DNA of 64,000 nt, taken from the NCBI GenBank assembly GCA_000002445.1, contig CP000070.1, positions 480,001 through 544,000 of the forward strand, in the 5' to 3' direction. Source of the stretch: Trypanosoma brucei (lineage: Eukaryota). Shown here one piece after another: positions 1-33,734 of the stretch (within the stretch, counting starts at the first letter, position 1; each line of letters begins with the position of its first letter). A model generated the notes under the pieces. That model worked only from the letters and a program-made list of their open reading frames with translations, did no database searches and had not been told where the DNA came from. Both the position numbers and the translations under genes were made by a program.

Positions 1-1439
1 GATGGAAACTTAAGATACATCTATGTGAGCATAGCGTTGTGTGAGTAGAAATCATGTGCATATTTTATCTTAATCTTTCCCTATATTGTACTCACTCACT
101 CGTAAAACTTAATCATGGAAATAAAGTTTAGGGAATAGTAAAGTTGTTCTTCCACTCGCATCAAGACACAAATACATGCTTTCTGTCATTGGAAATCATG
201 TGTCTTTATTAAATTGTAGTATCCAATAATGAAAAAGAAGTACTCTATTACTATATCACTCATCATTTCCTACATCCCTAAATATATCGCATATTGTAAC
301 TATACATATTCTTTTTCTTTTTCATATACCAAACAACAATCATATATTATTTACTTCCTTTCTTTAACCTGATGTCGTAATGTTCCTTTTGGAAGATACA
401 AATAAATAATTGTACAAATATTAACACAAGAGTAATAATAGAAGAAAAGAATTACCTTAAGGAAACTACATGGAACTTCCATTATATAAGATACTACACT
501 TCATATAAGGGGGAAATACGTAACAGTGGTTGTATCTTTTATTTGTCCTCAGTGTATCGGCAATCCTTCAGTAGACACTGCTTTGCAACTGATTTCTTTT
601 ATGGATTAAGTTAGTCAGCAGTGTTGAGACAGGTTCCCCCGCATGAGGAGTGAAGGGACAAAACAATATTCCTACCTTCTAACCTATTGAACAAGAATGT
701 CTCAAACAATATCATTTGTCCCTATTTATTTCTGCAGATGCAAATGCTATTGATGGGTGAGATACATCTAAACAGCAACGGATATAACTATACTCATACA
801 GTGTTTCTTTGATTTCTTCTCGTCACCACAGTTGTGTTGGGTTACAAATATATACACAGCACTCCACTTTGTGGCTATAAGTCTCTTTAATATTTGAATG
901 AAATCCTGCTTATCGCTACTGCAATATTTCACACTCTGTGAGGGACACTGATATTTGCTTCTTTCGTCCATTTCATATTTTGATAGTTATGTAAATATCT
1001 TATGTGCAATCCATCTTCTTTCCAAAATAAATAAAAAGAAAGATAAAAGCATAAGCAATTATCGACATAAAAACTGGAATGAGTCTCTCGGTTACACGTC
1101 GCACGCTTCTAACATATAGACACGCTGCATGTAACCTATTTTTGTTGTTTCATGCATGTGTCAGTATGATAAAATGAAAATAGTCTCATGTTTCTCCTTG
1201 TGCTTTTGTATTGCATAAACTACTGGACTCGTCATCTCTTCCACCTATTCATCACACAGGAGTTATTCACTTGCTTTACATGTAGCATATAGTAAAAATA
1301 CAAAATATCAAATTATTAAATTAATACTTCACTATAAGCAATAAAGCTTACTTGATTTTGTTTATTTCATTTATATCTGAGTTGAATTACATATGTTAAT
1401 GAAATTATTCCACTACTCAAAGATACAAACACTTTATTG

Positions 1440-1440
<1 letters not shown>

Positions 1441-1474
<34 letters not shown>

Positions 1475-1476
1475 AT
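1441..1476. repeat. Compound microsatellite (TA)9(GA)9, present once per array unit.
   Basis: Sequence tatatatatatatatatagagagagagagagagaa. It recurs near 7029, 12631, 18241, 23821 and 29401 with small length differences. Confidence 0.9.
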
Positions 1477-2413
1477 GGTTTTGAGACACACCACATATCA
1501 GTTCTTCAACATTACATATGTGTAAATCCATATTTACCAAAGGTACAGCTTTTGAATATCTGCATAATATTTTGAAGTATTATTATCTAATGAAGTGAAC
1601 AGTAGATGTCACTGAAATGCAAATAGTAATAATCCTCTGAAAGGCATAAATACTGTTTCATACAATACTCTAAAGTAATGCAGCGCTGTGCCATGAATAC
1701 TTCCACAGAATATACAACAACTAATGTGCGATAGTTAGTCATAATGATGCCTTCCATGTGATGAACTCTGCAATACAAATCATACGTTGAACAGAAACTA
1801 AAACATTAAATACTAAATATAAATACATGGGGGAGTGATGTAAACTATAAGAGGGGTTATGCACGTCAAAAAAGTTTCATTAGAATACAATAATAGTTTT
1901 GAATTTTATTAAACAACTTAAAGCTTAACCACATGTGTGGAAACAACAATCACTTCACTATAGCATTTGTAGATTAGTGATTGTTACTGAAATAAATGAA
2001 AAAAAACAAATGAAGTAAATACGGCAAGCACTGCATCCCATATTCTGTATTCATCACTGTGTGCTGACGCGTTTGAGTAGCTTTGCCCATTGACAGAAAA
2101 AAAAATAATAAATAAATGAAATCTCTTCTTGCATCTTGTACAAGTGTATTTCAACAAAACAAAGACGTAAAAGAAATTTTATGCTTAATATATTTACTCA
2201 TTTATTTGAAGGAAAGGTACAATAGCCAAAAAACTATAAAGGTGCATGTGAGTTATACTTCATTGTCAGATAAAGTTAACTTCACAACCCTCCTGAAACA
2301 CAAAAGGAAAATTAAAAGAATTACAATGAAGAAACAGAAGGAATACAATATGTTTTTTCCAACCTCTAACATGTTATATGTAAAAGTGACGAAATGGTCT
2401 TCACAATAGGATG

Positions 2414-4495
2414 CTACTCATGACCTCGTTTCCGTGTGAATGCTGGTGCATCTCGATATTTTCTCTCTTCATGATACGCTATTATAAGCTCTTTCTGTAT
2501 CTTTTTATCAAATGTTATTTGATACTGGTCAATACCATCCCAAAATACTTGTGTTTCCTCAGTTTGTTGCTCAGCATCAGCGGTGTTGTTGTTCACACAT
2601 CGTTGCCGCGTCTTAATCACACCACCATAAATAGCATTAACATATATCATCTCCCATGCCATGTTACGAGAAAAGGTATCCCAATCGGAAAAATACCTTG
2701 CAATGTTTGTCATAAATTCCTGTAACTCTGAAACACTTGCTTCTTTCCTGTAATTATCTGTTATTTGAATAAGCACAATAGTCTTTGAGGCAACTCCCAG
2801 TTGTGGAAAACCATCCCTCATATCCGCAACCCTTCTAGAGCAATCTTCCACAAAGAAAAAGCCATCCACAAAAAGCTTACTCTCCTCCAATGACCTGTAG
2901 AGCACTTTGTATTTACAGTTTCCAATTGCATTCTGTCCAGTTTTTGGCAAGAACTTTTGTTCAAAAATTTGAAACTGTTGTGGGGTCATATCTTTCAGGA
3001 TGCTACGCTTGTCTTCCGTCTCTCCGAGTCTTCGGAGGTAGTTCAAATGTTTTGTGACCACACAAAAGACTCTAGGAAAGAGAAGTGAAACCAAAGCCCT
3101 TGTTTTAAGCGAGTAGGCTCCGACCTTACCGTATTCCATCATGAATTCATGGGATGACATACTTTCCGCAACATCTGCAAACAGCGTACAGAGTATCATA
3201 TTCCCAATGGCAACTGATAGAGGTCTACAGTGGTATGATTCGAGGTTGCCATATCTGCTCCTCTCCCGTACAATCTTTATTAACGATTCTGTGAAATGAT
3301 TACCTTTCCATTCAAAATATTTTCCCATCATCATATCATAGCCATCTCGTCTATTACAACTGAGACTGCTTAGATACCCTATTACTGCCGCCTCACGACA
3401 GCCAGCTCCATTACTGAAAACATAACGAGGCAGCGGCCCCACAAAGTCAACACGTCTCTCCACCAACCTCCACTCATCCTCTAGCTCTTCCTTAACCTTC
3501 AAACGAGCATTTTCATCGAGAGTCGTATAGTTGGGAAATAGGGACAGTTTCTTCCAAGCCACAAACGCCTTAATGTCACGTACGTCATCGCAGTTTAAAA
3601 TTATCCTTGTTTGTTCCAGGTTCTTCATCCAGTACTTGTAGCTAACTCCATCTGGGGGTGCGAGGACAGTCACACCCCAAACATTTCTTGGGATCTCATA
3701 AGGCAGAGTTTCCTTACGACTATTAATATCAAAAATAATATGCCCTCTTTTTTTTAGACGCATTTCCTTAATAACATTAGTGACGTCTTCTCTCTTGTAC
3801 AATACAACCCTCCCTTCCTCATTCCCCTTCTTGTTGTATATAAGGTAAGCTTTGGAACCCGTGAAAAACACAACGACATCAAGCATTCCTTCATGGAAGT
3901 GAAGTAGGGAATGAAGTAAAAATGATCCAACTCCACATGATTTTCCAATACCAGATATACCAATGACAATGTGTGTTGGTGGTGTGCTCTCTGTCTTTTC
4001 CACCCACCATGCATTTAATTTTCGTTGTATTATATACCACACACGCATCATTTCACGACGGATGTAGACATTATTGTCCAATATCCCAATTCTCTGATAT
4101 AAACTAATGAGAGAACATTGAAATCTATCTGAGGGCCAACCCATCTTTGATGTAAGGACAAAGATCTCCAGGCCAGTGGGTCTCTCCTCAAGTTCCGCAT
4201 CAACTTCACAATGTTCAGGAGTTATATCAACTTCTTCTTCCGTCCATATGTGTTGTGGTCTTCCAAAGAATACCTTCATACCGAGTGGCTCTTGATTATA
4301 ACCTGACATCACATAACTCCACTTCGCATAATACAGAGACTCATATAACTCCTCTTCACGAGATTTCCTTTTTCCAGTTACCGATGGATTCTGCATCTGT
4401 CGTCCACCTCGTTCCTGCACTTCACCTTGTGCACGATTAAACCGTTCGTTAAACACATTCTGAGTATTTCCCATATTGCCGTTGTTTTGAATCAT
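2414..4495 (-). CDS. Multicopy P-loop NTPase-like protein, copy 1 (693 aa, cassette type A). Candidate RHS (retrotransposon hot spot) family member.
   Basis: Intact 693-aa ORF with ATG at 4493-4495 (cat on the + strand). Walker A motif IVIGISGIGKSCG. The ORF is conserved in frame in six tandem copies. The RHS name is an inference from the trypanosomatid multicopy tandem context, not a detected domain hit. Confidence 0.8.
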   Translation of the reverse strand: MIQNNGNMGNTQNVFNERFNRAQGEVQERGGRQMQNPSVTGKRKSREEELYESLYYAKWSYVMSGYNQEPLGMKVFFGRPQHIWTEEEVDITPEHCEVDAELEERPTGLEIFVLTSKMGWPSDRFQCSLISLYQRIGILDNNVYIRREMMRVWYIIQRKLNAWWVEKTESTPPTHIVIGISGIGKSCGVGSFLLHSLLHFHEGMLDVVVFFTGSKAYLIYNKKGNEEGRVVLYKREDVTNVIKEMRLKKRGHIIFDINSRKETLPYEIPRNVWGVTVLAPPDGVSYKYWMKNLEQTRIILNCDDVRDIKAFVAWKKLSLFPNYTTLDENARLKVKEELEDEWRLVERRVDFVGPLPRYVFSNGAGCREAAVIGYLSSLSCNRRDGYDMMMGKYFEWKGNHFTESLIKIVRERSRYGNLESYHCRPLSVAIGNMILCTLFADVAESMSSHEFMMEYGKVGAYSLKTRALVSLLFPRVFCVVTKHLNYLRRLGETEDKRSILKDMTPQQFQIFEQKFLPKTGQNAIGNCKYKVLYRSLEESKLFVDGFFFVEDCSRRVADMRDGFPQLGVASKTIVLIQITDNYRKEASVSELQEFMTNIARYFSDWDTFSRNMAWEMIYVNAIYGGVIKTRQRCVNNNTADAEQQTEETQVFWDGIDQYQITFDKKIQKELIIAYHEERKYRDAPAFTRKRGHE

Positions 4496-4552
4496 TCCTA
4501 TCTCAAAATAATAACTTTAAATAGGTAATATTGTGTTACTTTCTGAACATAT

Positions 4553-4568
4553 GTGTGTGTGTGTGTGT
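4553..4568. repeat. (GT)8 tract ((AC)n on the coding strand) about 55 nt upstream of the copy-1 ATG.
   Basis: The sequence reads acatatgtgtgtgtgtgtgtgtt. Confidence 0.9.
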
Positions 4569-7027
4569 TAAATCAAATAGTAAAATGAAGGGAATGATGT
4601 GTACACACTATCAAGCAACACATATATACAGTTCATGAATATCATAAACTAACAGAACAAATTATAACCTCTCCTTACAGTTAAACCCCTTAACAACCCC
4701 TTGCATATATTGAATAGTGATGTTCAATCAATTAAATATTCTGTATGAAAGCATGAGTAATAAGATTTTTAGATATGAGAGATAACAAACACGAAATCCT
4801 AAGTGAAGAATACTACTATTTCATATAATATAATATGTATGCATATAGTATAATATGTCATACTTTTTGAAATAATAAACAATAGTATTAATAATGAGAT
4901 AAACAGAATTTACAATAATAGATTATACATTGCACACGTAATAATGAGGACAACGTATGTCACAAAGGTTCTTAATTATAACATCGAAAGAACATTAACT
5001 CAAAGCATCAGCAAACATGCACATACAAACTGTTATTCATTATAACATCTTGGCTCCATCTCACAGCATAGACGACAATGTTTGAGTGTAAACCGTAACA
5101 TACAAAACCTAACACAAATATCTTCTGTACTGTCAAATATTGGGATGGTATCTCATCTCATTATTAAACACTTTCAACATTATCTTGTTGTCTCCTTGTT
5201 TGGGAACTCTCATCTTTGACACTAAGGAATATGTGAAGATACTAAGATCATTTATTTTTTTATTTCCTAGTTGCATTTGCAATTGTTCACATATTCTTTC
5301 AGTACACGCAAAAAAATTGAAAGTTTAAGGAAAATTGAATTATGAGAATAAGGAAACAAAGGATAAATTTTCTGTGAACAATAAAATATTATATAATATC
5401 TCAAATCTTCTGCAGTGATTCACCACATGTGGAAAATATATGCAATAGTTACATAACACTGACAACACTGAATAAAGGAATATATTCAATATACTCAATA
5501 TAGTCAATATATTTAATGCAAATATTACATGGAATATAAGAAGTGTAAGGAATCAAAGGAATATAAAAAATAAAATGTAATGGAGAATGATGGAAACTTA
5601 AGATACATCTATGTGAGCATAGCGTTGTGTGAGTAGAAATCATGTGCATATTTTATCTTAATCTTTCCCTATATTGTACTCACTCACTCGTAAAACTTAA
5701 TCATGGAAATAAAGTTTAGGGAATAGTAAAGTTGTTCTTCCACTCGCGTCAAGACACAAATACCTGCTTTCTGTCATTGGAAATCATGTGTCTTTATTAA
5801 ATTGTAGTATCCAATAATGAAAAAGAAGTACTCTATTACTATATCACTCATCATTTCCTACATCCCTAAATATATCGCATATTGTAACTATACATATTCT
5901 TTTTCTTTTTCATATACCATACAACAATCATATATTATTTACTTCCTTTCTTTAAACTGATGTCGTAATGTTCCTTTTGGAAGATACAAATAAATAATTG
6001 TACAAATATTAACACAAGAGTAATGATAGAAGAAAAGAATTACCTTAAGGAAACTACATGGAACTTCCATTATATAAGATACTACACTTCATATAAGGGG
6101 GAAATACGTAACAGTGGTTGTATCTTTTATTTGTCCTCAGTGTATCGGCAATCCTTCAGTAGACGCTGCTTTGCAACTGATTTCTTTTATGGATTAAGTT
6201 AGTCAGCAGTGTTGAGACAGGTTCCCCCGCATGAGGAGTGAAGGGACAAAACAATATTCCTACCTTCTAACCTATTGAACAAGAATGTCTCAAACAATAT
6301 CATTTGTCCCTATTTATTTCTGCAGATGCAAATGCTATTGATGGGTGAGATACATCTAAACAGCAACGGATATAACTATACTCATACAGTGTTTCTTTGA
6401 TTTCTTCTCGTCACCACAGTTGTGTTGGGTTACAAATATATACACAGCACTCCACTTTGTGGCTATAAGTCTCTTTAATATTTGAATGAAATCCTGCCTA
6501 TCGCTACTGCAATATTTCACACTCTGTGAGGGACACTGATATTTGCTTCTTTCGTCCATTTCATATTTTGATAGTTATGTAAATATCTTATGTGCAATCC
6601 ATCTCCTTTCCAAAATAAATAAAAAGAAAGATAAAAGCATAAGCAATTATCGACATAAAAACTGGAATGAGTCTCTCGGTTACACGTCGCACGCTTCTAA
6701 CATATAGACACGCTGCATGTAACCTATTTTTGTTGTTTCATGCATGTGTCAGTATGATAAAATGAAAATAGTCTCATGTTTCTCCTTGTGCTTTTGTATT
6801 GCATAAACTACTGGACTCGTCATCTCTTCCATCTATTCATCACACAGGAGTTGTTCACTTGCTTTACATGTAGCATATAGTAAAAATACAAAATATCAAA
6901 TTATTAAATTAATACTTCACTATAAGCAATAAAGCTTACTTGATTTTGTTTATTTCATTTATATCTGAGTTGAATTACATATGTTAATGAAATTATTCCA
7001 CTACTCAAAGATACAAACACTTTATTG

Positions 7028-7062
<35 letters not shown>

Positions 7063-8001
7063 ATGGTTTTGAGACACACCACATATCAGTTCTTCAACAT
7101 TACATATGTGTAAATCCATATTTACAAAAGGTACAGCTTTTGAATATCTGCATAATTATTTGAAGTATTATTATCTAATGAAGTGAACAGTAGATGTCAC
7201 TGAAATGCAAATAGTAATAATCCTCTGAAAGGCATAAATACTGTTTCATACAATACTCTAAAGTAATGCAGCGCTGTGCCATGAATACTTCCACAGAATA
7301 TACAACAACTAATGTGCGATAGTTAGTCATAATGATGCCTTCCATGTGATGAACTCTGCAATACAAATCATACGTTGAACAGAAACTAAAACATTAAATA
7401 CTAAATATAAATGCATGGGGGAGTGATGTAAACTATAAGAGGGGTTATGCACGTCAAAAAAGTTTCATTAGAATACAATAATAGTTTTGAATTTTATTAA
7501 ACAACTTAAAGCTTAACCACATGTGTGGAAACAACAATCACTTCACTATAGCATTTGTAGATTAGTGATTGTTACTGAAATAAATGAAAAAAAACAAATG
7601 AAGTAAATAAGGCAAGCACTGCATCCCATATTCTGTATTCATCACTGTGTGCTGACGCGTTTGAGTAGCTTTGCCCATTGACAGAAAAAAAAATAATAAA
7701 TAAATGAAATCTCTTCTTGCATCTTGTACAAGTGTATTTCAACAAAACAAAGACGTAAAAGAAATTTTATGCTTAATATATTTACTCATTTATTTGAAGG
7801 AAAGGTACAATAGCCAAAAAACTATAAAGGTGCATGTGAGTTATACTTCATTGTCAGATAAAGTTAACTTCACAACCCTCCTGAAACACAAAAGGAAAAT
7901 TAAAAGAATTACAATGAAGAAACAGAAGGAATACAATATGTTTTTTCCAACCTCTAACATGTTATATGTAAAAGTGACGAAATGGTCTTCACAATAGGAT
8001 G

Positions 8002-10083
8002 CTACTCATGACCTCTTTTCCGTGTGAATGCTGGTGCATCTCGATATTTTCTCTCTTCATGATACGCTATTATAAGCTCTTTCTGTATCTTTTTATCAAA
8101 TGTTATTTGATACTGGTCAATACCATCCCAAAATACTTGTGTTTCCTCAGTTTGTTGCTCAGCATCAGCGGTGTTGTTGTTCACACATCGTTGCCGCGTC
8201 TTAATCACACCACCATAAATAGCATTAACATATATCATCTCCCATGCCATGTTACGAGAAAAGGTATCCCAATCGGAAAAATACCTTGCAATGTTTGTCA
8301 TAAATTCCTGTAACTCTGAAACACTTGCTTCTTTCCTGTAATTATCTGTTATTTGAATAAGCACAATAGTCTTTGAGGCAACTCCCAGTTGTGGAAAACC
8401 ATCCCGCATATCCGCAACCCTTCTAGAGCAATCTTCCACAAAGAAAAAGCCATCCACAAAAAGCTTACTCTCCTCCAATGACCTGTAGAGCACTTTGTAT
8501 TTACAGTTTCCAATTGCATTCTGTCCAGCTTCTGGCAAGAACTTTTGTTCAAAAATTTGAAACTGTTGTGGGGTCATATCTTTCAGGATGCTACGCTTGT
8601 CTTCCGTCTCTCCGAGTCTTCGGAGGTAGTTCAAATGTTTTGTGACCACACAAAAGACTCTAGGAAAGAGAAGTGAAACCAAAGCCCTTGTTTTAAGCGA
8701 GTAGGCTCCGACCTTACCGTATTCCATCATGAATTCATGGGATGACATACTTTCCGCAACATCTGCAAACAGCGTACAGAGTATCATATTCCCAATGGCA
8801 ACTGATAGAGGTCTACAGTGGTATGATTCGAGGTTGCCATATCTGCTCCCCTCCCGTACAATCTTTATTAACGATTCTGTGAAATCATTACCTTTCCATT
8901 CAAAATATTTTCCCATCATCATATCATAGCCATCTCGTCTATTACAACTGAGACTGCTTAGATACCCTATTACTGCCGCCTCACGACAGCCAGCTCCATT
9001 ACTGAAAACATAACGAGGCAGCGGCCCCACAAAGTCAACACGTCTCTCCACCAACCTCCACTCATCCTCTAGCTCTTCCTTAACCTTCAAACGAGCATTT
9101 TCATCGAGAGTCGTATAGTTGGGAAATACGGACAGTTTCTTCCAAGCCACAAACGCCTTAATGTCACGTACGTCATCGCAGTTTAAAATTATCCTTGTTT
9201 GTTCCAGGTTCTTCATCCAGTACTTGTAGCGAACTCCATCTGGGGGTGCGAGGACAGTCACACCCCAAACATTTCTTGGGATCTCATAAGGCAGAGTTTC
9301 CTTACGACTATTAATATCAAAAATAATATGCCCTCTTTTTTTTAGACGCATTTCCTTAATAACATTAGTGACGTCTTTTCTCTTGTACAATACAACCCTC
9401 CCTTCCTCATTCCCCTTCTTGTTGTATATAAGGTAAGCTTTGGAACCCGTGAAATACACAACGACATCAAGCATTCCTTCATGGAAGTGAAGTAGGGAAT
9501 GAAGTAAAAATGATCCAACTCCACATGATTTTCCAATACCAGATATACCAATGACAATGTGTGTTGGTGGTGTGCTCTCTGTCTTTTCCACCCACCATGC
9601 ATTTAATTTTCGTTGTATTATATACCACACACGCATCATTTCACGACGGATGTAGACATTATTATCCAATATCCCAATTCTCTGATATAAACTAATGAGA
9701 GAACATTGAAATCCGCATGATGGGTTACATATCTTTGATGTAAGGACAAAGATCTCCAGGCCAGTGGGTCTCTCCTCAAGTTCCGCATCAACTTCACAAT
9801 GTTCAGGAGTTATATCCACTTCTTCTTCCGTTCATATGTGTTGTGGTCTTCCAAAGAATACCTTCATACCGAGTGGCTCTTGATTATAACCTGACATCAC
9901 ATAACTCCACTTCGCATAATACAGAGACTCATATAACTCCTCTTCACGAGATTTGCTTTTTCCAGTTACCGATGGATTCTGCATCTGCCGTCCACCTTGT
10001 TCATGCACTTCACCTTGTGCACGATTAAACCGTTCGTTAAACACATTCTGAGTATTTCTCATATTGCCGTTGTTTTGAATCAT
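8002..10083 (-). pseudogene. Copy 2 of the P-loop protein gene, disrupted by a nonsense codon: TGG to TGA, coding-strand stop at 9832-9834.
   Basis: The N-terminal 83 codons (from ATG at 10083) end at ...RPQHI followed by a stop. Other copies read HIWTEE. Here the + strand has gttcatatg where the others have gtccatatg. The rest of the ORF (605 aa) continues in frame. There is also a private variant patch SKICNPSCGFQ. Confidence 0.8.
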
Positions 10084-10140
10084 TCCTATCTCAAAATAAT
10101 AACTTTAAATAGGTAATATTGCGTTACTTTCTGCACATAT

Positions 10141-10141
10141 G

Positions 10142-15744: not shown

Positions 15745-15746
15745 TG

Positions 15747-23821: not shown

Positions 23822-23858
<37 letters not shown>

Positions 23859-24808: not shown

Positions 24809-26872
24809 TCATTTCCGTGTGAATGCTGGTGCATCTCGATATTTTCTCTCTTCATGATACGCTATTATAAGCTCTTTCTGTATCTTGTTATCAAATGTTA
24901 TTTGATACTGGTCAATACCATCCCAAAATACTTGTGTTTCCTCAGTTTGTTGCTCAGCATCAGCGGTGTTGTTGTTCACACATCGTTGCCGCGTCTTAAT
25001 CACACCACCATAAATAGCATTAACATATATCATCTCCCATGCCATGTTACGAGAAAAGGTATCCCAATCGGAAAAATACCTTGCAATGTTTGTCATAAAT
25101 TCCTGTAACTCTGAAACACTTGCTTCTTTCCTGTAATTATCTGTTATTTGAATAAGCACAATAGTCTTTGAGGCAACTCCCAGTTGTGGAAAACCATCCC
25201 TCATATCCGCAACCCTTCTAGAGCAATCTTCCACAAAGAAAAAGCCATCCACAAAAAGCTTACTCTCCTCCAATGACCTGTAGAGCACCTTGTATTTACA
25301 GTTTCCAATTGCATTCTGTCCAGTTTTTGGTAAGAACTTTTGTTCAAAAATTTGAAACTGTTGTGGGGTCATATCTTTCAGGATGCTACGCTTGTCTTCC
25401 GTCTCTCCGAGTCTTCGGAGGTAGTTCAAATGTTTTGTGACCACACAAAAGACTCTAGGAAAGAGAAGTGAAACCAAAGCCCTTGTTTCAAGCGAGTAGG
25501 CTCCGACCTTACCGTATACGCTTTCACTATGTTTCTCAACCATCAGTGTTGCAACAGTTGAAAACAGCGTACAGAGTATCATATTCCCAATGGGAACTGA
25601 TAGAGGTCTACAGTGGTATGATTCGAGGTCGTCATATCTGCCCCCCTCCCGTACAATCTTCACTAAACTGTGAACCACTTTTTCACTTTTCCACGTAAAA
25701 TATTTTTCCAGAATCGTTTCATACTCTTCTTTCTTCTCATTTTCTAGGCTTCTTAGGTAATCACTGATATCCTGCAGCCGGTTGGTGTAACTTTGCTTGC
25801 TGAAAACATAACGAGGCAGCGGCCCCACAACGTCAACACGTCTCTCCACCAACCTCCACTCATCCTCTAGCTCTTCCTTAACCTTCGCACGAGCATTTTC
25901 ATCGAGAGTCGTATAGTTGGGAAATAGGGACAGTTTCTTCCAGGCCACAAACGCCTTAATGTCACGTACGTCATCGCAGTTTAAAATCACATTCCAACTT
26001 AAATAGTCCTTCTCCCAATGTTCATAATAGTGTGTATCCGGAGTGTTGAGTGTAGTTATTCCCCACCCAAGATATTGGGTCTCATAAGGCGGAGTCTCAT
26101 CAGGTCCATCAGTATCAAAAATAATATGCCCTCTTTTTTTCAAACGCATTTCTTTAATAACATTAGTGACGTCTTTTCTCTTGTACAATACAACCCTCCC
26201 TTCCTCATTCCCCTTCTTGTTGTATATAAGGTAAGCTTTGGCATCCGTGAAATACACAACGACATCAAGCATTCCTTCATGGAAGTGAAGTAGGGAATGA
26301 AGTAAAAATGATCCAACTCCACATGATTTTCCAGTCCCTGGAATACCAATGATAATGTGTGTTGGTGGTGTGCTCTCTGTCTTTTGCACCCACCATTCTT
26401 TTAATTTTTGTTGTATTATATACCACACACGCATCATTTCACGACGGATGTAGACATTATTGTCCATTATACCACTTTCATCATTGATACCTAATTGAAA
26501 CGTAGCTGATGGCCAACCCATCTTTGATGTAAGGACAAAGATCTCCAGGCCAGTGGGTCTCTCCTCAAGTTCCGCATCAACTTCACAATGTTCAGGAGTT
26601 ATATCCACTTCTTCTTCCGTCCATATGTGTTGTGGTCTTCCAAAGAATACCTTCATACCGAGTGGCTCTTGATTATAACCTGACATCACATAACTCCACT
26701 TCGCATAATACAGAGACTCATATAACTCCTCTTCACGAGATTTCCTTTTTCCAGTTACCGATGGATTCTGCATCTGTCGTCCACCTCGTTCCTGCACTTC
26801 ACCTTGTGCACGATTAAACCGTTCGTTAAACACATTCTGAGTATTTCTCATATTGCCGTTGTTTTGAATCAT
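24809..26872 (-). CDS. Multicopy P-loop NTPase-like protein, copy 5 (687 aa, type B). The C-terminus is 4 aa shorter because CGA became TGA.
   Basis: Intact ORF with ATG at 26870-26872. It ends ...FTRK rather than ...FTRKRGHE. Confidence 0.8.
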   Translation of the reverse strand: MIQNNGNMRNTQNVFNERFNRAQGEVQERGGRQMQNPSVTGKRKSREEELYESLYYAKWSYVMSGYNQEPLGMKVFFGRPQHIWTEEEVDITPEHCEVDAELEERPTGLEIFVLTSKMGWPSATFQLGINDESGIMDNNVYIRREMMRVWYIIQQKLKEWWVQKTESTPPTHIIIGIPGTGKSCGVGSFLLHSLLHFHEGMLDVVVYFTDAKAYLIYNKKGNEEGRVVLYKRKDVTNVIKEMRLKKRGHIIFDTDGPDETPPYETQYLGWGITTLNTPDTHYYEHWEKDYLSWNVILNCDDVRDIKAFVAWKKLSLFPNYTTLDENARAKVKEELEDEWRLVERRVDVVGPLPRYVFSKQSYTNRLQDISDYLRSLENEKKEEYETILEKYFTWKSEKVVHSLVKIVREGGRYDDLESYHCRPLSVPIGNMILCTLFSTVATLMVEKHSESVYGKVGAYSLETRALVSLLFPRVFCVVTKHLNYLRRLGETEDKRSILKDMTPQQFQIFEQKFLPKTGQNAIGNCKYKVLYRSLEESKLFVDGFFFVEDCSRRVADMRDGFPQLGVASKTIVLIQITDNYRKEASVSELQEFMTNIARYFSDWDTFSRNMAWEMIYVNAIYGGVIKTRQRCVNNNTADAEQQTEETQVFWDGIDQYQITFDNKIQKELIIAYHEERKYRDAPAFTRK

Positions 26873-26930
26873 TCCTATCTCAAAATAATAACTTTAAATA
26901 GGTAATATTGTGTTACTTTCTGAACATATA

Positions 26931-26945
26931 TGTGTTTGTGTGTGT
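26931..26945. repeat. Short degenerate (GT)n tract of about 15 bp upstream of copy 5.
   Basis: Sequence tgtgtttgtgtgtgtt. The shortest allele. Confidence 0.85.
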
Positions 26946-29404
26946 TAAATCAAATAGTAAAATGAAGGGAATGATGTGTACACACTATCAAGCAACACAT
27001 ATATACAGTTCATGAATATCATAAACTAACAGAACAAATTATAACCCCTCCTTACAGTTAAACCCCTTAACAACCCCTTGCATATATTGAATAGTGATGT
27101 TCAATCAATTAAATATTCTGTATGAAAGCATGAGTAATAAGATTTTTAGATATGAGAGATAACAAACACGAAATCCTAAGTGAAGAATACTACTATTTCA
27201 TATAATATAATATGTATGCATATAGTATAATATGTCATACTTTTTGAAATAATAAACAATAGTATTAATAATGAGATAAACAGAATTTACAATAATAGAT
27301 TATACATTGCACACGTAATAATGAGGACAACGTATGTCACAAAGGTTCTTAATTATAACATCGAAAGAACATTAACTCAAAGCATCAGCAAACATGCAGA
27401 TACAAACTGTTATTCATTATAACATCTTGGCTCCATTTCACAGCATAGACGACAATGTTTGAGTGTAAACCGTAACATACAAAACCCAACACAAATATCT
27501 TCTGTACTGTCAAATATTGGGATGGTATCTCATCTCATTATTAAACACTTTCAACATTATCTTGTTGTCTCCTTGTTTGGGAACTCTCATCTTTGACACT
27601 AAGGAATATGTGAAGATATTAAGATCATTTATTTTTTTATTTCCTAGTTGCATTTGCAATTGTTCACGTATTCTTTCAGTACACGCAAAAAAATTGAAAG
27701 TTTAAGGAAAATTGAATTATGAGAATAAGGAAACAAAGGATAAATTTTCTGTGAACAATAAAATATTATATAATATCTTAAATCTTCTGCAGTGATTCAC
27801 CACATGTGGAAAATATATGCAATAGTTACATAACACTGACAACACTGAATAAAGGAATATATTCAATATACTCAATATAGTCAATATATTTAATGCAAAT
27901 ATTACATGGAATATAAGAAGTGTAAGGAATCAAAGGAATATAAAAAATAAAATGTAATGGAGAATGATGGAAACTTAAGATACATCTATGTGAGCATAGC
28001 GTTGTGTGAGTAGAAATCATGTGCATATTTTATCTTAATCTTTCCCTATATTGTACTCACTCACTCGTAAAACTTAATCATGGAAATAAAGTTTAGGGAA
28101 TAGTAAAGTTGTTCTTCCACTCGCGTCAAGACACAAATACATGCTTTCTGTCATTGGAAATCATGTGTCTTTATTAAATTGTAGTATCCAATAATGAAAA
28201 AGAAGTACTCTATTACTATATCACTCATCATTTCCTACATCCCTAAATATATCGCATATTGTCACTATACATATTCTTTTTCTTTTTCATATACCATACA
28301 ACAATCATATATTATTTACTTCCTTTCTTTAAACTGATGTCGTAATGTTCCTTTTGGAAGATACAAATAAATAATTGAACAAATATTAACACAAGAGTAA
28401 TGATAGAAGAAAAGAATTACCTTAAGGAAACTACATGGAACTTCCATTATATAAGATACTACACTTCATATAAGGGGGAAATACGTAACAGTGGTTGTAT
28501 CTTTTATTTGTCCTCAGTGTATCGGCAATCCTTCAGTAGACACTGCTTTGCAACTGATTTCTTTTATGGATTAAGTTAGTCAGCAGTGTTGAGACAGGTT
28601 CCCCCGCATGAGGAGTGAAGGGACAAAACAATATTCCTACCTTCTAACCTATTGAACAAGAATGTCTCAAACAATATCATTTGTCCCTATTTATTTCTGC
28701 AGATGCAAATGCTATTGATGGGTGAGATACATCTAAACAGCAACGGATATAACTATACTCATACAGTGTTTCTTTGATTTCTTCTCGTCACCACAGTTGT
28801 GTTGGGTTACAAATATATACACAGCACTCCACTTTGTGGCTATAAGTCTCTTTAATATTTGAATGAAATCCTGCTTATCGCTACTGCAATATTTCACACT
28901 CTGTGAGGGACACTGATATTTGCTTCTTTCGTCCATTTCATATTTTGATAGTTATGTAAATATCTTATGTGCAATCCATCTCCTTTCCAAAATAAATAAA
29001 AAGAAAGATAAAAGCATAAGCAATTATCGACATAAAAACTGGAATGAGTCTCTCGGTTACACGTCGCACGCTTCTAACATATAGACACGCTGCATGTAAC
29101 CTATTTTTGTAGTTTCATGCATGTGTCAGTATGATAAAATGAAAATAGTCTCATGTTTCTCCTTGTGCTTTTGTATTGCATAAACTACTGGACTCGTCAT
29201 CTCTTCCACCTATTCATCACACAGGAGTTATTCACTTGCTTTACATGTAGCATATAGTAAAAATACAAAATATCAAATTATTAAATTAATACTTCACTAT
29301 AAGCAATAAAGCTTACTTGATTTTGTTTATTTCATTTATATCTGAGTTGAATTACATATGTTAATGAAATTATTCCACTACTCAAAGATACAAACACTTT
29401 ATTG

Positions 29405-29437
<33 letters not shown>

Positions 29438-30387
29438 ATGGTTTTGAGACACACCACATATCAGTTCTTCAACATTACATATGTGTAAATCCATATTTAC
29501 AAAAGGTACAGCTTTTGAATATCTGCATAATTATTTGAAGTATTATTATCTAATGAAGTGAACAGTAGATGTCACTGAAATGCAAATAGTAATAATCCTC
29601 TGAAAGGCATAAATACTGTTTCATACAATACTCTAAAGTACTGCAGCGCTGTGCCATGAATACTTCCACAGAATATACAACAACTAATGTGCGATAGTTA
29701 GTCATAATGATGCCTTCCATGTGATGAACTCTGCAATACAAATCATACGTTGAACAGAAACTAAAACATTAAATACTAAATATAAATGCATGGGGGAGTG
29801 ATGTAAACTATAAGAGGGGTTATGTACGTCAAGGAAGTTTCATTAGAATACAATAATAGTTTTGAATTTTATTAGACAACTTAAAGCTTAACCACATGTG
29901 TGGAAACAACAATCACTTCACTATAGCATTTGTAGATTAGTGATTGTTACTGAAATAAATGAAAAAAAACAAATGAAGTAAATACGGCAAGCACTGCATC
30001 CCATATTCTGTATTCATCACTGTGTGCTGACGCGTTTGAGTAGCTTTGCCCATTGACAGAAAAAAAAATAATAAATAAATGAAATCTCTTCTTGCATCTT
30101 GTACAAGTGTATTTCAACAAAACAAAGACGTAAAAGAAATTTTATGCTTAATATATTTACTCATTTATTTGAAGGAAAGGTACAATAGCCAAAAACTATA
30201 AAGGTGCATGTGAGTTATACTTCATTGTCAGATAAAGTTAACTTCACAACCCTCCTGAAACACAAAAGGAAAATTAAAAGAATTACAATGAAGAAACAGA
30301 AGGAATACAATATGTTTTTTCCAACCTCTAACATGTTATATGTAAAAGTGACGAAATGGTCTTCACAATATGATGCTACTCATGACC

Positions 30388-32454
30388 TCATTTCCGTGTG
30401 AATGCTGGTGCATCTCGATATTTTCTCTCTTCATGATACGCTATTATAAGCTCTTTCTGTATCTTTTTATCAAATGTTATTTGATACTGGTCAATACCAT
30501 CCCAAAATACTTGTGTTTCCTCAGTTTGTTGCTCAGCATCAGCGGTGTTGTTGTTCACACATCGTTGCCGCGTCTTAATCACACCACCATAAATAGCATT
30601 AACATATATCATCTCCCATGCCATGTTACGAGAAAAGGTATCCCAATCGGAAAAATACCTTGCAATGTTTGTCATAAATTCCTGTAACTCTGAAACACTT
30701 GCTTCTTTCCTGTAATTATCTGTTATTTGAATAAGCACAATAGTCTTTGAGGCAACTCCCAGTTGTGGAAAACCATCCCTCATATCCGCAACCCTTCTAG
30801 AGCAATCTTCCACAAAGAAAAAGCCACCAACAAGGGGCTTACTCTCTTCAAATGACCTGTAGAGCACCTTGTATTCACAGTTTCCAATTGCATTCTGTCC
30901 AGCTTCTGGTAAGAACTTTTGTTCAACAAGTTGAAACTGTTGTGGGGTCATATCTTTCAGGATGCTACGCTTGTCTTCCGTCTCTCCGAGTCTTCGGAGG
31001 TAGTTCAAATGTTTTGTGACCACACAAAAGACTCTAGGAAAGAGAAGTGAAACCAAAGCCCTTGTTTTAAGCGAGTAGGCTCCGACCTTACCGTATCCCA
31101 TCATGAATTCAAGGGATGACATACTTTTCGCAACAGTTGCAAACAGCGTACAGAGTATCATATTCCCAATGGCAACTGATAGAGGTCTACAGTGGTATGA
31201 TTCGAGGTTGCCATATCTGCTCCTCTCCCGTACAATCTTTATTAACGGTTGTGTGAAATCATTACCTTTCCATTCAAAATATTTTCCCATCATCATATCA
31301 TAGCCATCTCGTCTATTACAACTGAGACGGCTTAGATACCTTATTACCTCCAACTCACGACAGTTACCTCGATTACCGAAAACATAACGAGGCAGCGGCC
31401 CCACTACGTCAACACGTCTCTCCACCAACCTCCACTCATCCTCTAGCTCTTCCTTAACCTTCGCACGAGCATTTTCATCGAGAGTCGTATAGTTGGGAAA
31501 TAGGGACAGTTTCTTCCAAGCCACAAACGCCTTAATGTCACGTACGTCATCGCAGTTTAAAATTATCCTTGTTTGTTCCAGGTTCTTCATCCAGTACTTG
31601 TAGCGAACTCCATCTGGGGGTGCGAGGACAGTCACACCCCAAACATTTCTTGGGATCTCATAAGGCAGAGTTTCCTTAGGACTATTAATATCAAAAATAA
31701 TATGCCCTCTTTTTTTCAAACGCATTTCTTCAATAACATTAGTGACGTCTTTTCTCTTGTACAATACAACCCTCCCTTCCTCATTCCCCTTCTTGTTGTA
31801 TATAAGGTAAGCTTTGGCATCCGTGAAATACACAACGACATCAAGCATTCCTTCATGGAAGTGAAGTAGGGAATGAAGTAAAAATGATCCAACTCCACAT
31901 GATTTTCCAATACCAGATATACCAATGACAATGTGTGTTGGTGGTCTCTCTGTCTTTTGCACCCACCATGCATTTAATTTTTGTTGTATTATATACCACA
32001 CACGCATCATTTCACGACGGATGTAGACATTATTGTCCAATATCCCAATTCTCTGATATAAACTAATTAGACCACCTTGAAATCTATCTGAGGGCCAACC
32101 CATCATTGATGTAAGGACAAAGATCTCCAGGCCAGTGGGTCTCTCCTCAAGTTCCGCATCAACTTCACAATGTTCAGGAGTTATATCCACTTCTTCTTCC
32201 GTCCATATGTGTTGTGGTCTTCCAAAGAATACCTTCATACCGAGTGGCTCTTGATTATAACCTGACATCACATAACTCCACTTCGCATAATACAGAGACT
32301 CATATAACTCCTCTTCACGAGATTTCCTTTTTCCAGTTACCGATGGATTCTGCATCTGTCGTCCACCTCGTTCCTGCACTTCACCTTGTGCACGATTAAA
32401 CCGTTCGTTAAACACATTCTGAGTATTTCCCATATTGCCGTTGTTTTGAATCAT
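30388..32454 (-). CDS. Multicopy P-loop NTPase-like protein, copy 6 (688 aa). A chimera of type A and type B cassettes.
   Basis: Intact ORF with ATG at 32452-32454. GISGIGKS (A-like) is followed by YFTDAKAY (B-like), then an A-like FDINSPKETLPYEIP block, then B-like ARAKVKEE...VDVVGPLP. Confidence 0.8.
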   Translation of the reverse strand: MIQNNGNMGNTQNVFNERFNRAQGEVQERGGRQMQNPSVTGKRKSREEELYESLYYAKWSYVMSGYNQEPLGMKVFFGRPQHIWTEEEVDITPEHCEVDAELEERPTGLEIFVLTSMMGWPSDRFQGGLISLYQRIGILDNNVYIRREMMRVWYIIQQKLNAWWVQKTERPPTHIVIGISGIGKSCGVGSFLLHSLLHFHEGMLDVVVYFTDAKAYLIYNKKGNEEGRVVLYKRKDVTNVIEEMRLKKRGHIIFDINSPKETLPYEIPRNVWGVTVLAPPDGVRYKYWMKNLEQTRIILNCDDVRDIKAFVAWKKLSLFPNYTTLDENARAKVKEELEDEWRLVERRVDVVGPLPRYVFGNRGNCRELEVIRYLSRLSCNRRDGYDMMMGKYFEWKGNDFTQPLIKIVRERSRYGNLESYHCRPLSVAIGNMILCTLFATVAKSMSSLEFMMGYGKVGAYSLKTRALVSLLFPRVFCVVTKHLNYLRRLGETEDKRSILKDMTPQQFQLVEQKFLPEAGQNAIGNCEYKVLYRSFEESKPLVGGFFFVEDCSRRVADMRDGFPQLGVASKTIVLIQITDNYRKEASVSELQEFMTNIARYFSDWDTFSRNMAWEMIYVNAIYGGVIKTRQRCVNNNTADAEQQTEETQVFWDGIDQYQITFDKKIQKELIIAYHEERKYRDAPAFTRK

Positions 32455-32512
32455 TCCTATCTCAAAATAATAACTTTAAATAGGTAATATTGTGTTACTT
32501 TCTGAACATATA

Positions 32513-32527
32513 TGTGTGTGTGTGTGT
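32513..32527. repeat. (GT)7 tract upstream of copy 6.
   Basis: Same position in the unit. Confidence 0.85.
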
Positions 32528-33547
32528 TAAATCAAATAGTAAAATGAAGGGAATGATGTGTACACACTATCAAGCAACATATATATACAGTTCATGAATA
32601 TCATAAACTAACAGAACAAATTATAACCCCTCCTTACAGTTAAACCCCTTAACAACCCCTTGCATATATTGAATAGTGATGTTCAATCAATTAAATATTC
32701 TGTATGAAAGCATGAGTAATAAGATTTTTAGATATGAGAGATAACAAACACGAAATCCTAAGTGAAGAATACTACTATTTCATATAATATAATATGTATG
32801 CATATAGTATAATATGTCATACTTTTTGAAATAATAAACAATAGTATTAATAATGAGATAAACAGAATTTACAATAATAGATTATACATTGCACACGTAA
32901 TAATGAGGACAACGTATGTCACAAAGGTTCTTAATTATAACATCGAAAGAACATTAACTCAAAGCATCAGCAAACATGCACATACAAACTGTTATTCATT
33001 ATAACATCTTGGCTCCATCTCACAGCATAGACGACAATGTTTGAGTGTAAACCGTAACATACAAAACCCAACACAAATATCTTCTGTACTGTTAAATATT
33101 GGGATGGTATCTCATCTCATTATTAAACACTTTCAACATTATCTCGTTGTCTCCTTGTTTGGGAACTCTCATCTGTGACACTAAGGAATATGTGAAGATA
33201 CTAAGATCATTTATTTATTTATTTCCTAGTTGCATTTGCAATTGTTCACATATTCTTTCAGTACACGCAAAAAAATTGAAAGTTTAAGGAAAATTGAATT
33301 ATGAGAATGAGGAAACAAAGGATAAATTTTCTGTGAACAATAAAATATTATATAATATCTCAAATCTTCTGCAGTGATTCACCACATGTGGAAAATATAT
33401 GCAATAGTTACATAACACTGACAACACTGAATAAAGGAATATATTCAATATACTCAATATACTCAATATATTTAATGCAAATATTACATGGAATATAAGA
33501 AGTGTAAGGAATCAAAGGAATATAAAAAATAAAATGTAATGGAGAAT

Positions 33548-33734
33548 GATGGAAACTGAAGATACATCTATGTGAGCATAGCGTTGTGTGAGTAGAAATC
33601 ATGTGCATATTTTATCTTAATCTTTCCCTATATTGTACTCACTCACTCGTAAAACTTAATCATGGAAATAAAGTTTAGGGAATAGTAAAGTTGTTCTTCC
33701 ACTCGCATCAAGACACAAATACCTGCTTTCTGTC
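33548..33734. repeat. Partial 7th unit (first 187 bp of the unit), the array edge.
   Basis: Matches unit positions 1-187, then diverges into unique sequence (tttgaatgtgttgattttgg...). Confidence 0.85.

What the first reader, a model, noticed from the sequence alone, without database searches (positions are those of the whole stretch)
1..33734. Large, recently homogenised 5.6-kb tandem array truncated by the window edge
There are six complete units plus a fragment. Each is 5.58-5.61 kb and only about 37% of a unit (2.07 kb) is coding. The remaining ~3.5 kb is AT-rich spacer with no credible ORF. Even so, it is conserved almost base-for-base between copies. One example is cgcgtc at 5757 against cgcatc at 169. 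Unit 4 carries a single 9-bp indel.
This level of conservation implies very recent amplification or ongoing unequal crossing-over and gene conversion. The array runs to position 1, so more copies probably lie upstream. Such arrays usually mark subtelomeric or accessory compartments of trypanosome chromosomes.
Basis: seen in the sequence. Interest (0 to 1): 0.6.

Follow-up and report, generated by a model that had tools for sequence, protein, structure and literature searches.

The report
Known RHS7 tandem gene array
The repeat is real, but it is the already annotated and published array of RHS7 (retrotransposon hot spot protein 7) genes on chromosome 7 of Trypanosoma brucei TREU927; it lies inside the chromosome core rather than in a subtelomere, and its non-coding spacers are more alike than its genes.

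Summary
Window 1-33738 holds six head-to-tail units of 5577-5611 bp plus a 191-bp fragment, each with one minus-strand ORF of about 2.07 kb (37% of the unit).

The ORFs are exact matches to T. brucei brucei TREU927 chromosome 7 RHS proteins AAZ12263-12267, the RHS7 subfamily. The array is already catalogued as tandem array "Tb55" (Jackson 2007). [quoted passage not shown]

The interpretation needs correcting in three places.
- **Conservation:** the "near base-for-base" identity holds only for the spacers (98.8-99.3%). The coding sequences fall into two types, U1/U2/U6 and U3/U4/U5, that are 90-91% identical. The differences sit in four short hypervariable blocks (dS about 0.7), and the block states are found in different combinations among copies of three T. 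brucei strains.
- **Age:** spacer divergence within the array (about 1%) equals that between TREU927 and T. b. equiperdum units, and both gene types are shared across subspecies. The amplification is therefore not very recent.
- **Location:** the array abuts housekeeping genes on the same strand, at a chromosome-internal convergent strand-switch region. It is not subtelomeric.

Unit 2 is a pseudogene with a single stop codon. Low novelty.

The parts
1..33738 (-). RHS7 tandem array: six units plus a 191-bp fragment. It is cut by the left window edge, and about three more copies lie upstream.
   Evidence: Self-BLAST; anchor positions; boundary alignment; nine genes according to PMC4721609
2414..4495 (-). 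Unit 1 RHS7 gene, 693 aa, type A (= AAZ12263)
   Evidence: Pfam RHS_N 3e-34 and RHSP 1e-53; exact match
8002..10083 (-). Unit 2 RHS7 pseudogene, type A, with TGG>TGA at codon 84 (9832-9834)
   Evidence: no protein accession for it in the series AAZ12263-12267
13613..15688 (-). Unit 3 RHS7 gene, 691 aa, type B (= AAZ12264)
19215..21287 (-). Unit 4 RHS7 gene, 690 aa, type B (= AAZ12265)
24809..26872 (-). Unit 5 RHS7 gene, 687 aa, type B (= AAZ12266)
30388..32454 (-). Unit 6 RHS7 gene, 688 aa, type A-like with third states in blocks 3 and 4 (= AAZ12267). It is the first copy in the direction of transcription.
4058..4144 (-). Hypervariable block 1 (aa 118-146 of unit 1); four states among known copies. 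Homologous positions exist in every unit.
3602..3730 (-). Hypervariable block 2 (aa 256-298), two states
3260..3415 (-). Hypervariable block 3 (aa 361-412), three states
3128..3178 (-). Hypervariable block 4 (aa 440-456), three states
10084..13612 (-). Representative 3.5-kb inter-gene spacer (GC 0.31). It has no credible ORF. It contains a (TC)9(TA)8 tract about 940 nt after the stop codon (12655-12674) and a length-variable (CA)n/(TG)n run about 60 nt before the next ATG (10140-10178). It is presumed to hold the 3' UTR, the processing signals and the 5' UTR.
   Evidence: spacer identity 98.8-99.3%
33548..33738 (-). Terminal 191-bp partial unit. The array ends 1284 bp upstream of the unit-6 ATG and 515 bp downstream of the stop codon of the SET-domain gene.
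34253..35074 (-). First single-copy neighbour (SET-domain protein, AAZ12268) on the same strand; the conserved housekeeping genes start here.

Best explanation
This is the RHS7 gene array of Trypanosoma brucei brucei TREU927 chromosome 7, also known as array 'Tb55' and as the silent cluster at convergent strand-switch region 7.3. The window holds six of its nine head-to-tail copies.

**Shown here.** Each 5.6-kb unit carries one gene for a P-loop RHS protein. The array sits at the 3' end of a polycistronic transcription unit of housekeeping genes, inside the chromosome core.

**Inferred.** The 3.5-kb AT-rich spacer holds the mRNA's untranslated regions and the trans-splicing and polyadenylation signals.

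**From the literature.**
- The cluster lies downstream of a transcription termination site marked by base J and histone H3.V, and is silent in bloodstream forms.
- RHS7 mRNA is restricted to tsetse salivary-gland stages.
- Its mRNA abundance or stability responds to depletion of REG9.1 and of DRBD18.

**How the sequence pattern arises (shown in part, mechanism inferred).** Unit similarity is kept up by unequal crossing-over and gene conversion between misaligned units. This holds spacers and most of the CDS at 98-99% identity and scrambles their genealogies. Four short CDS blocks, within or adjoining the P-loop domain, escape this homogenisation. They persist as two to four deeply diverged states (dS about 0.7, against 0.03 in the rest of the CDS), and the states are found in different combinations among copies. 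Either selection for diversity keeps them, or their divergence blocks heteroduplex formation, so they move only as whole blocks.
For: **Identity**
- Exact matches to AAZ12263-12268, XP_845822-27 and other TREU927 chromosome 7 proteins.
- Pfam RHS_N and RHSP domains.
- RHS7 is the name used for Tb927.7.2010 and Tb927.7.2030 (PMC7952579, PMC4477658, PMC1855330).

**Array anatomy:**

**Core position**
- Flanking housekeeping genes on the same strand.
- In T. b. equiperdum IVM-t1 the locus is at 0.71-0.73 Mb of 2.10 Mb. There the array ends 654 bp after the last stop codon and faces a convergent GDA1_CD39 gene.
- 'Nine highly similar RHS genes' at cSSR 7.3, chromosome 7 453-525 kb, de-repressed when H3.V and base J are lost (PMC4721609).

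**Expression**
- Restricted to salivary glands (PMC8483307, PMC6393297).
- Up-regulated on REG9.1 depletion (PMC5380359).
- mRNA destabilised on DRBD18 depletion (PMC4477658).

**Concerted evolution with escape blocks**
- Mean identity is 99.0% in spacers, 98.3% in the CDS outside the blocks, and 58.8% in the blocks between types.
- In the blocks dS is 0.73 and dN 0.59. Outside them dS is 0.03-0.04.
- The split U1U2U6|U3U4U5 has 146 informative sites in the variable part of the CDS and 0-1 in each flank segment. The flank splits are mutually incompatible.
- There are 12 block haplotypes among 28 complete copies, and every adjacent pair of blocks shows all four state combinations.
- CDS types group across strains, whereas spacers do not.
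- Jackson 2007 independently reported that copies 2-4 diverge in the CDS but not in the UTRs, with Ds 0.066 and Dn 0.065 (PMC1855330).
Against: - The UTR assignment of the spacer is inferred. The only strong polypyrimidine tract lies 2.6 kb upstream of the next ATG, and no transcript data were available here.
- Ongoing homogenisation is only weakly visible. T. b. equiperdum spacers are slightly closer to each other (0.3-1.2%) than to TREU927 spacers (0.5-1.6%). The 99% identity could therefore largely reflect a moderate age of the copies plus sexual exchange between strains.
- Some mosaic haplotypes come from the gap-rich T. b. gambiense DAL972 assembly and could be assembly chimeras.
- The structure model was too poor (pLDDT 54.8) to say where the blocks lie on the protein.
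Confidence: 0.85

Rival explanations
1. Very recent amplification: the units are near-identical because they were copied from one template shortly before the strain was sampled.
For: Spacers are 98.8-99.3% identical, with few indels.
Against: - The two CDS types differ by 9-10% overall and by about 40% in the blocks, with dS about 0.7.
- Both types, and the array itself, are present in T. b. gambiense and T. b. equiperdum.
- Within-array spacer divergence equals the divergence between strains.
- It is also at least as large as the single-copy flank divergence from T. equiperdum OVI, about 0.6%.
Confidence: 0.05
2. The divergent CDS blocks of units 3-5 were imported by ectopic gene conversion from another RHS paralogue elsewhere in the genome and then spread to neighbouring units.
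For: - The blocks have sharp boundaries inside otherwise identical sequence.
- Mosaic RHS genes formed by segmental conversion are described in T. cruzi (PMC7563717).
Against: - No non-RHS7 protein in the 5.8-billion-sequence search is more than 51% identical overall.
- In the blocks, other RHS subfamilies match state A and state B equally poorly, 12-46% across individual blocks and paralogues.
- Jackson 2007 found ectopic conversion very rare in T. brucei arrays and did not list Tb55 among the affected arrays (PMC1855330).
Confidence: 0.1
3. The spacer is conserved because it is itself functional, for example as a long regulatory 3' UTR, a non-coding RNA or a base-J-rich termination/silencing element, and not merely because it is homogenised.
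For: - The spacer (99.0%) is slightly better conserved than the CDS outside the blocks (98.3%). It is also better conserved than synonymous sites there, where dS is 0.014-0.04.
- RHS7 is tightly stage-regulated and responds to depletion of REG9.1 and of the RNA-binding protein DRBD18 (PMC5380359, PMC4477658).
- The cluster is silenced through base J and H3.V (PMC4721609).
Against: - There is no Rfam hit.
- Substitutions and microsatellite length changes are spread along the whole spacer.
- Linkage to old block haplotypes can by itself explain the higher divergence of the CDS.
- This reading complements the main explanation and does not exclude it.
Confidence: 0.3
4. Assembly artefact: the reference assembly duplicated or mis-tiled a shorter array.
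For: Arrays of 5.6-kb units at 99% identity are hard to assemble. The IVM-t1 assembly has a gap inside its own copy of the array.
Against: - Every unit has private substitutions and its own microsatellite lengths.
- There are two gene types and one pseudogene in a definite order.
- Independent assemblies of two other strains contain multi-copy arrays.
Confidence: 0.03

Closest known systems
T. brucei tandem array Tb55 / RHS7 cluster (including Tb927.7.2010 and Tb927.7.2030), Jackson 2007, BMC Evol Biol (PMC1855330)
   Same: It is the same locus. The paper reports that the array is present at this position only in T. brucei and T. b. gambiense. It gives Ds 0.066 and Dn 0.065, and notes that CDS copies 2-4 diverge while the 5' and 3' UTRs do not follow that split.
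   Different: Nothing differs in kind. In the text I could read, the four-block structure of the divergence, the block-level dS and the different block combinations across strains are not spelled out.
Silent gene cluster at convergent strand-switch region 7.3 (Reynolds et al. 2016, PLoS Genet, PMC4721609)
   Same: It is the same locus: nine highly similar RHS genes at chromosome 7, 453-525 kb, downstream of a termination site inside the transcription unit that is marked by base J and H3.V.
   Different: The base J and H3.V marks cannot be seen in the sequence, so only the gene order and orientation were checked here.
Subtelomeric RHS1-6 clusters of T. brucei (Bringaud et al. 2002, as summarised in PMC6393297)
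   Same: The same protein family, with RHS_N and RHSP P-loop domains. RHS7 proteins are 29-51% identical to other RHS subfamilies.
   Different: - Those clusters are subtelomeric, and about 60% of their members are disrupted by RIME/ingi insertions.
[quoted passage not shown]
- This array is chromosome-internal and has no retroelement insertion.
- It is a regular tandem array, and its expression is restricted to salivary-gland stages.
Mosaic RHS genes of T. cruzi generated by segmental gene conversion (PMC7563717)
   Same: The same family, with short internal segments exchanged between copies to give mosaic genes.
   Different: In T. cruzi the exchanges are between dispersed paralogue groups. 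Here they occur within one tandem array, between two to four block states, with no outside donor found.
Other T. brucei arrays with invariant non-coding regions but divergent coding sequences (Tb24, Tb62a, BARP array Tb93; PMC1855330)
   Same: The same inverted pattern, with the spacer more conserved than the CDS, inside a polycistronic tandem array.
   Different: The gene families are different, and the degree of block structure in those arrays was not examined here.

Membership tests
RHS (retrotransposon hot spot) protein family, subfamily RHS7 | N-terminal RHS_N domain (PF20445) | tested here: met
   E = 3e-34 (U1) and 2e-33 (U3), above the gathering score
RHS (retrotransposon hot spot) protein family, subfamily RHS7 | RHSP P-loop domain (PF07999) with a Walker A motif | tested here: met
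   E = 1e-53 to 6e-59 over the full profile. The motif is GISGIGKS in type A and GIPGTGKS in type B.
RHS (retrotransposon hot spot) protein family, subfamily RHS7 | Sequence identity to the annotated chromosome 7 RHS7 genes | tested here: met
   Five ORFs are identical to AAZ12263-12267 of TREU927 chromosome 7. The RHS7 name for Tb927.7.2010 and Tb927.7.2030 comes from PMC7952579, PMC4477658 and PMC1855330. The mapping of accessions to Tb927 identifiers is inferred.
RHS (retrotransposon hot spot) protein family, subfamily RHS7 | RIME/ingi retroelement inserted at the 5' hot spot (seen in many family members, but not required) | tested here: not met
   All six coding regions are co-linear, at 2064-2082 bp, with no insertion. 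A recalled retroposon 5' motif was not found in the array (a weak test).
Tandem gene array evolving in concert (unequal crossing-over / gene conversion) | At least four head-to-tail copies on one strand, with alignable intergenic sequence | tested here: met
   Six units in the window
Tandem gene array evolving in concert (unequal crossing-over / gene conversion) | Conflicting genealogies along the unit (a recombination signature) | tested here: met
   The site-pattern partitions differ between the CDS and the flanks, and are mutually incompatible within the flanks. All four state combinations occur between adjacent blocks.
Tandem gene array evolving in concert (unequal crossing-over / gene conversion) | Copies within a genome are more alike than copies between genomes | tested here: inconclusive
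   Spacer differences are 0.6-1.6% within TREU927, 0.5-1.6% between TREU927 and IVM-t1, and 0.3-1.2% within IVM-t1. CDS types group across strains.
   The flank consists of conserved housekeeping genes. The position is 0.71-0.73 Mb of 2.10 Mb in IVM-t1, and chromosome 7, 453-525 kb of 2.2 Mb in TREU927 (PMC4721609; chromosome length).
Silent cluster at the end of a transcription unit, behind a base J / H3.V termination site | Located at the 3' end of a polycistronic unit, facing a convergent unit | tested here: met
   All window genes are on the minus strand. In IVM-t1 the last RHS7 copy is followed by opposite-strand GDA1_CD39, LRR and GDC-P genes.
Silent cluster at the end of a transcription unit, behind a base J / H3.V termination site | Base J and H3.V enrichment, with de-repression when they are lost | not testable with these tools
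   Literature only (PMC4721609)

The most novel reading that the evidence does not exclude
The four hypervariable blocks within or adjoining the P-loop domain of RHS7 could form a deliberately maintained combinatorial diversity system. Old block states, with silent-site divergence about 20 times that of the surrounding gene, would be kept by balancing or diversifying selection and shuffled among array copies. This would give a repertoire of variant nuclear NTPases that are expressed only in the tsetse salivary-gland stages, where mating also takes place. Such variants might serve in partner or self recognition, or in genome defence. The present evidence does not exclude this reading, but it fits a passive explanation equally well, in which divergent segments simply resist gene conversion.
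Probability: 0.12. Interest if true: 0.55.

Novelty: already known. Interest (0 to 1): 0.2.

Why it matters
The case shows that a large, regular repeat in a trypanosome window need not be subtelomeric. This one is a stage-specific gene cluster parked behind a transcription termination site in the chromosome core.

It is also a clear example of a unit whose non-coding part is more uniform than its gene. That pattern argues against using spacer identity alone to date an amplification.

For trypanosome biology, the only mildly new point is that RHS7 diversity sits in four blocks whose states occur in different combinations. This gives a concrete handle for asking whether the variants of this salivary-gland-stage protein differ in function.

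Tried and rejected
- **Tandem Repeats Finder.** It cannot see the array because its period limit is 500 bp. A self-BLAST was used instead.
- **Rfam and tRNA scans of the whole window.** Nothing was found, so a snoRNA or ncRNA cluster in the spacer is not supported.
- **Spacer ORFs.** The longest is 97 aa and of low complexity, so a hidden gene was rejected.
- **Similarity of a unit to the rest of the window.** A sensitive blastn found none.
- **Retroposon 5' signature.** A pattern recalled from memory gave no hit in the array. This is a weak test.
- **Fetching TREU927 DNA upstream of the window.** Exact-protein look-ups failed for P0001 and P0011. Upstream copies were therefore inferred from the accession series and from the literature.
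- **Bringaud 2002 (PMC118050).** The paper is not held, so its content is cited only through PMC6393297.
- **Solved structures.** No PDB relative was found by sequence.
- **AlphaFold model of the unit-1 protein.** A 20-sequence alignment gave mean pLDDT 54.8 and pTM 0.40. Most of the blocks fall in segments with pLDDT below 50. No fold search was run, and nothing is claimed about whether the blocks lie on the protein surface.
- **Compensated frameshifts as the origin of the blocks.** Paired 5/5-bp and 4/7-bp indels suggested this, but the nucleotide alignment inside the blocks is too diverged to support a simple frameshift.
- **dN/dS above 1 in the blocks.** This was not found between types A and B (0.8, with dS saturated). 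U1 against U6 gives 23 non-synonymous and 2 synonymous changes, too few to be significant by my rough binomial estimate of about 0.09.
Full report

Yes. A self-comparison of the window gives five full-length off-diagonal alignments and a sixth short 191-bp one, at offsets of one to six units. Overall identities are 95.5-98.4%, with E = 0 for the five long alignments and 1e-92 for the 191-bp one. An anchor taken from the first bases recurs at 1, 5589, 11200, 16803, 22389, 27966 and 33548. The unit lengths are therefore 5588, 5611, 5603, 5586, 5577 and 5582 bp.

Homology stops sharply at 33738, 191 bp into a seventh unit. Tandem Repeats Finder shows nothing, because its period limit is 500 bp.

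Each unit carries one long minus-strand ORF of 2064-2082 bp, which is 37.0-37.3% of the unit. CDS GC is 0.41 and spacer GC 0.30-0.31. The spacer has no ORF longer than 97 aa and no Rfam or tRNA match. It has no similarity to the rest of the window.

- The CGCATC/CGCGTC difference is at 157 and 5745, not at 169 and 5757.
- No 9-bp indel is private to unit 4. The one 9-bp indel is inside the CDS and is shared by units 3-5 against units 1, 2 and 6. The unit-4 CDS is 9 bp shorter than that of unit 1 as the net result of six indels.
- The units are not uniformly near-identical (section 3).

**2. What is it?**

The ORFs have the RHS_N and RHSP (P-loop) domains of retrotransposon hot spot proteins.
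- Five of them are residue-for-residue identical to AAZ12263-AAZ12267 (XP_845822-845826) of Trypanosoma brucei brucei TREU927.
- The neighbouring SET-domain ORF is identical to AAZ12268.
- The GMP synthase and BAG-domain ORFs further right are identical to AAZ12274 and AAZ12276 respectively.

All of these lie on the 2,205,233-bp chromosome 7. Unit 2 has a TGG>TGA change at codon 84 (9832-9834). It has no protein accession in that series, so it is a pseudogene.

AAZ12260 and AAZ12261 are further RHS7 proteins of the same chromosome, so the array does continue to the left of the window.

The literature names these genes RHS7:
- Tb927.7.2010 in PMC7952579;
- Tb927.7.2030 in PMC4477658 and PMC1855330.

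Jackson (2007) catalogued the locus as tandem array Tb55. It is present at this position only in T. brucei and T. b. gambiense, with Ds 0.0658 and Dn 0.0647. [quoted passage not shown]

Reynolds et al. [quoted passage not shown] It lies downstream of a termination site marked by base J and H3.V, and is de-repressed when those marks are lost. Six copies in the window plus three upstream make nine.

**3. Pattern of conservation: the main correction**

I aligned the six units and split the columns into regions. This shows the following.
- Pairwise spacer identity is 98.8-99.3% for every pair.
- The coding sequences form two groups, U1/U2/U6 and U3/U4/U5. They are 98.7-99.2% identical within U1/U2 and within U3/U4/U5.
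- U6 is only 96.7-97.3% identical to U1 and U2.
- The two groups are only 90.0-91.1% identical to each other.

The non-coding DNA is therefore more uniform than the gene.

The differences are not spread evenly. In 20-codon windows, nucleotide identity between U1 and U3 drops to 46-70% in four short stretches. Nearly everywhere else it is 97-100%; a few adjoining windows (codons 181-220 and 241-260) reach only 87-93%. The boundaries are sharp at the nucleotide level.

In unit-1 residues the blocks are 118-146, 256-298, 361-412 and 440-456. Three lie inside the RHSP domain, and the first lies just before it.

| Region | dS between types | dN between types |
|---|---|---|
| Inside the blocks | 0.73 | 0.59 |
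| Rest of the CDS | 0.03-0.04 | 0.014-0.018 |

Mean nucleotide identity is 99.0% in spacers and 98.3% in the CDS outside the blocks. In the blocks it is 58.8% between the types. Silent sites in the blocks are thus about 20 times more diverged than silent sites around them. This points to old sequence states, not to a burst of amino-acid change.

The split U1U2U6|U3U4U5 is backed by 146 informative sites in the variable part of the CDS. It has 0-1 informative site in each flank segment and 2 in the C-terminal third of the CDS. The few informative sites in the flanks support many mutually incompatible splits. This reproduces Jackson's finding and is the expected footprint of recombination or gene conversion along the unit.

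**4. Block states in different combinations and across strains**

I took 34 RHS7 sequences: TREU927 (seven proteins plus the unit-2 pseudogene), T. b. gambiense DAL972 and T. b. equiperdum IVM-t1. Block 1 has four states among them, block 2 has two, and blocks 3 and 4 have three each.

The 28 copies complete for all four blocks carry 12 different combinations. Every adjacent pair of blocks shows all four state combinations.

A caveat applies. Many of the mosaics come from the gap-rich DAL972 assembly. TREU927 alone shows four haplotypes.

No outside donor was found. The closest non-RHS7 proteins are 51% identical overall. In the blocks they match either state equally poorly, 12-46% across individual blocks and paralogues. 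In block length, state B looks more like the other RHS subfamilies, because it lacks the 9-bp insertion and has the extra residue in block 3.

**5. Age of the array**

DNA of the homologous locus in T. b. equiperdum IVM-t1 (CM010678.1) was retrieved. It holds at least three units, interrupted by a 100-N assembly gap.

| Comparison | Spacer substitution differences |
|---|---|
| Within TREU927 | 0.6-1.6% |
| TREU927 against IVM-t1 | 0.5-1.6% |
| Within IVM-t1 | 0.3-1.2% |

The CDS types group across strains. E1 and E2 are 1.2-2.6% from U3-U5, and E0 is 2.2% from U1. The single-copy flank differs by about 0.6% between TREU927 and T. equiperdum OVI.

So the units are not younger than the split between the strains. 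"Very recent amplification" is not supported, and continuing homogenisation is only weakly visible in these data.

**6. Location**

To the right of the array, all on the same strand, lie these genes:
- a SET-domain protein;
- an NF-X1/R3H zinc-finger protein;
- ERCC1;
- a DnaJ protein;
- the bifunctional capping enzyme/guanine-N7 methyltransferase;
- GMP synthase;
- a BAG-domain protein;
- Dcc1.

In IVM-t1 the locus is at 0.71-0.73 Mb of a 2.10-Mb chromosome. There the array ends 654 bp after the last stop codon and faces opposite-strand GDA1_CD39, LRR and glycine dehydrogenase genes, which makes it a convergent strand-switch region.

This is the chromosome core, at the tail of a polycistronic unit. 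It is not a subtelomere, and none of the six copies carries a retroelement insertion.

**7. How it most likely works**

*Shown:* the anatomy, the identity, the core position and the conservation pattern.

*From the literature:*
- Silencing behind a base J/H3.V termination site (PMC4721609).
- mRNA found only in tsetse salivary-gland stages and not in metacyclic forms (PMC8483307, PMC6393297).
- Up-regulation on REG9.1 depletion (PMC5380359).
- mRNA destabilisation on DRBD18 depletion (PMC4477658).
- The function of RHS7 is unknown (PMC12774637). RHS2, RHS4 and RHS6 act in Pol II transcription and mRNA export (PMC6393297).

*Inferred:*
- The spacer is mostly UTR plus RNA-processing signals.
- Unequal crossing-over and gene conversion keep the units alike.
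- The four blocks persist because they are selected for diversity, or because about 40% divergence blocks heteroduplex formation, so they are transferred only whole.

Silent-site divergence in the CDS outside the blocks (0.014-0.04) is higher than spacer divergence (about 0.01). This fits linkage to the old block states.

**8. Verdict**

It is, however, an annotated and published locus, so its novelty is "already known".

The block structure of RHS7 diversity is a modest refinement of Jackson's observation. It resembles the mosaic RHS genes reported in T. cruzi (PMC7563717).

The AlphaFold model was too weak to place the blocks on the protein, and no solved relative exists.

Noticed in passing
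window 44263-50181: A 5.9-kb stretch with no credible ORF. GC is about 0.28, it is A-rich on the + strand, and it is full of low-complexity and microsatellite repeats. It lies between the capping-enzyme gene (40963-44262, -) and a 271-aa hypothetical gene (50182-50997, -). There is no Rfam or tRNA hit. It is unusually long for an intergenic or UTR region inside a transcription unit.
   Followed up: partly
window 9832-9834: The unit-2 RHS7 copy is inactivated by a single TGG>TGA change at codon 84 and is otherwise intact. The mechanical ORF list shows it as a 605-aa GTG-start ORF at 8002-9819.
   Followed up: yes
window 10140-10178 and 15745-15783 (homologous sites in the other units): A (TG)n/(CA)n microsatellite about 60 nt upstream of each RHS7 start codon varies in length between units. 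It is 22 bp longer in units 2 and 3 and 8 bp longer in unit 4 than in units 1, 5 and 6.
   Followed up: partly
window about 3935-3960 (aa 179-187 of unit 1) and homologous sites: The Walker A motif differs between gene types: GISGIGKS in units 1, 2 and 6, and GIPGTGKS in units 3-5. Both fit the P-loop consensus.
   Followed up: no
L004 1-3467 (T. b. equiperdum IVM-t1 chromosome 7, CM010678.1): Across a 100-N gap from the RHS7 array lies a 194-bp satellite with 17.9 copies at 97% identity. It has no match in the window, where the SET-domain gene occupies that side. It could be a scaffolding join or a real rearrangement.
   Followed up: partly
L004 17633-18287 and window 33548-33738: The array ends are not in phase. 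The first copy keeps 1284 bp of unit sequence upstream of its ATG, and in IVM-t1 the last copy keeps 654 bp after its stop codon. About 1.6 kb of each spacer therefore exists only between copies, and the array is not a whole number of units.
   Followed up: partly
window 36500-37288 (+): A 262-aa TTG-start ORF lies antisense to the NF-X1/R3H gene (35353-37785, -). It is probably a chance ORF in GC-rich coding sequence.
   Followed up: no
T. b. gambiense DAL972 proteins CBH12225-CBH12254: About 30 consecutive RHS7 entries, many of them fragments, are annotated in DAL972, against nine genes in TREU927. This suggests copy-number differences, a fragmented assembly of the array, or both.
   Followed up: no
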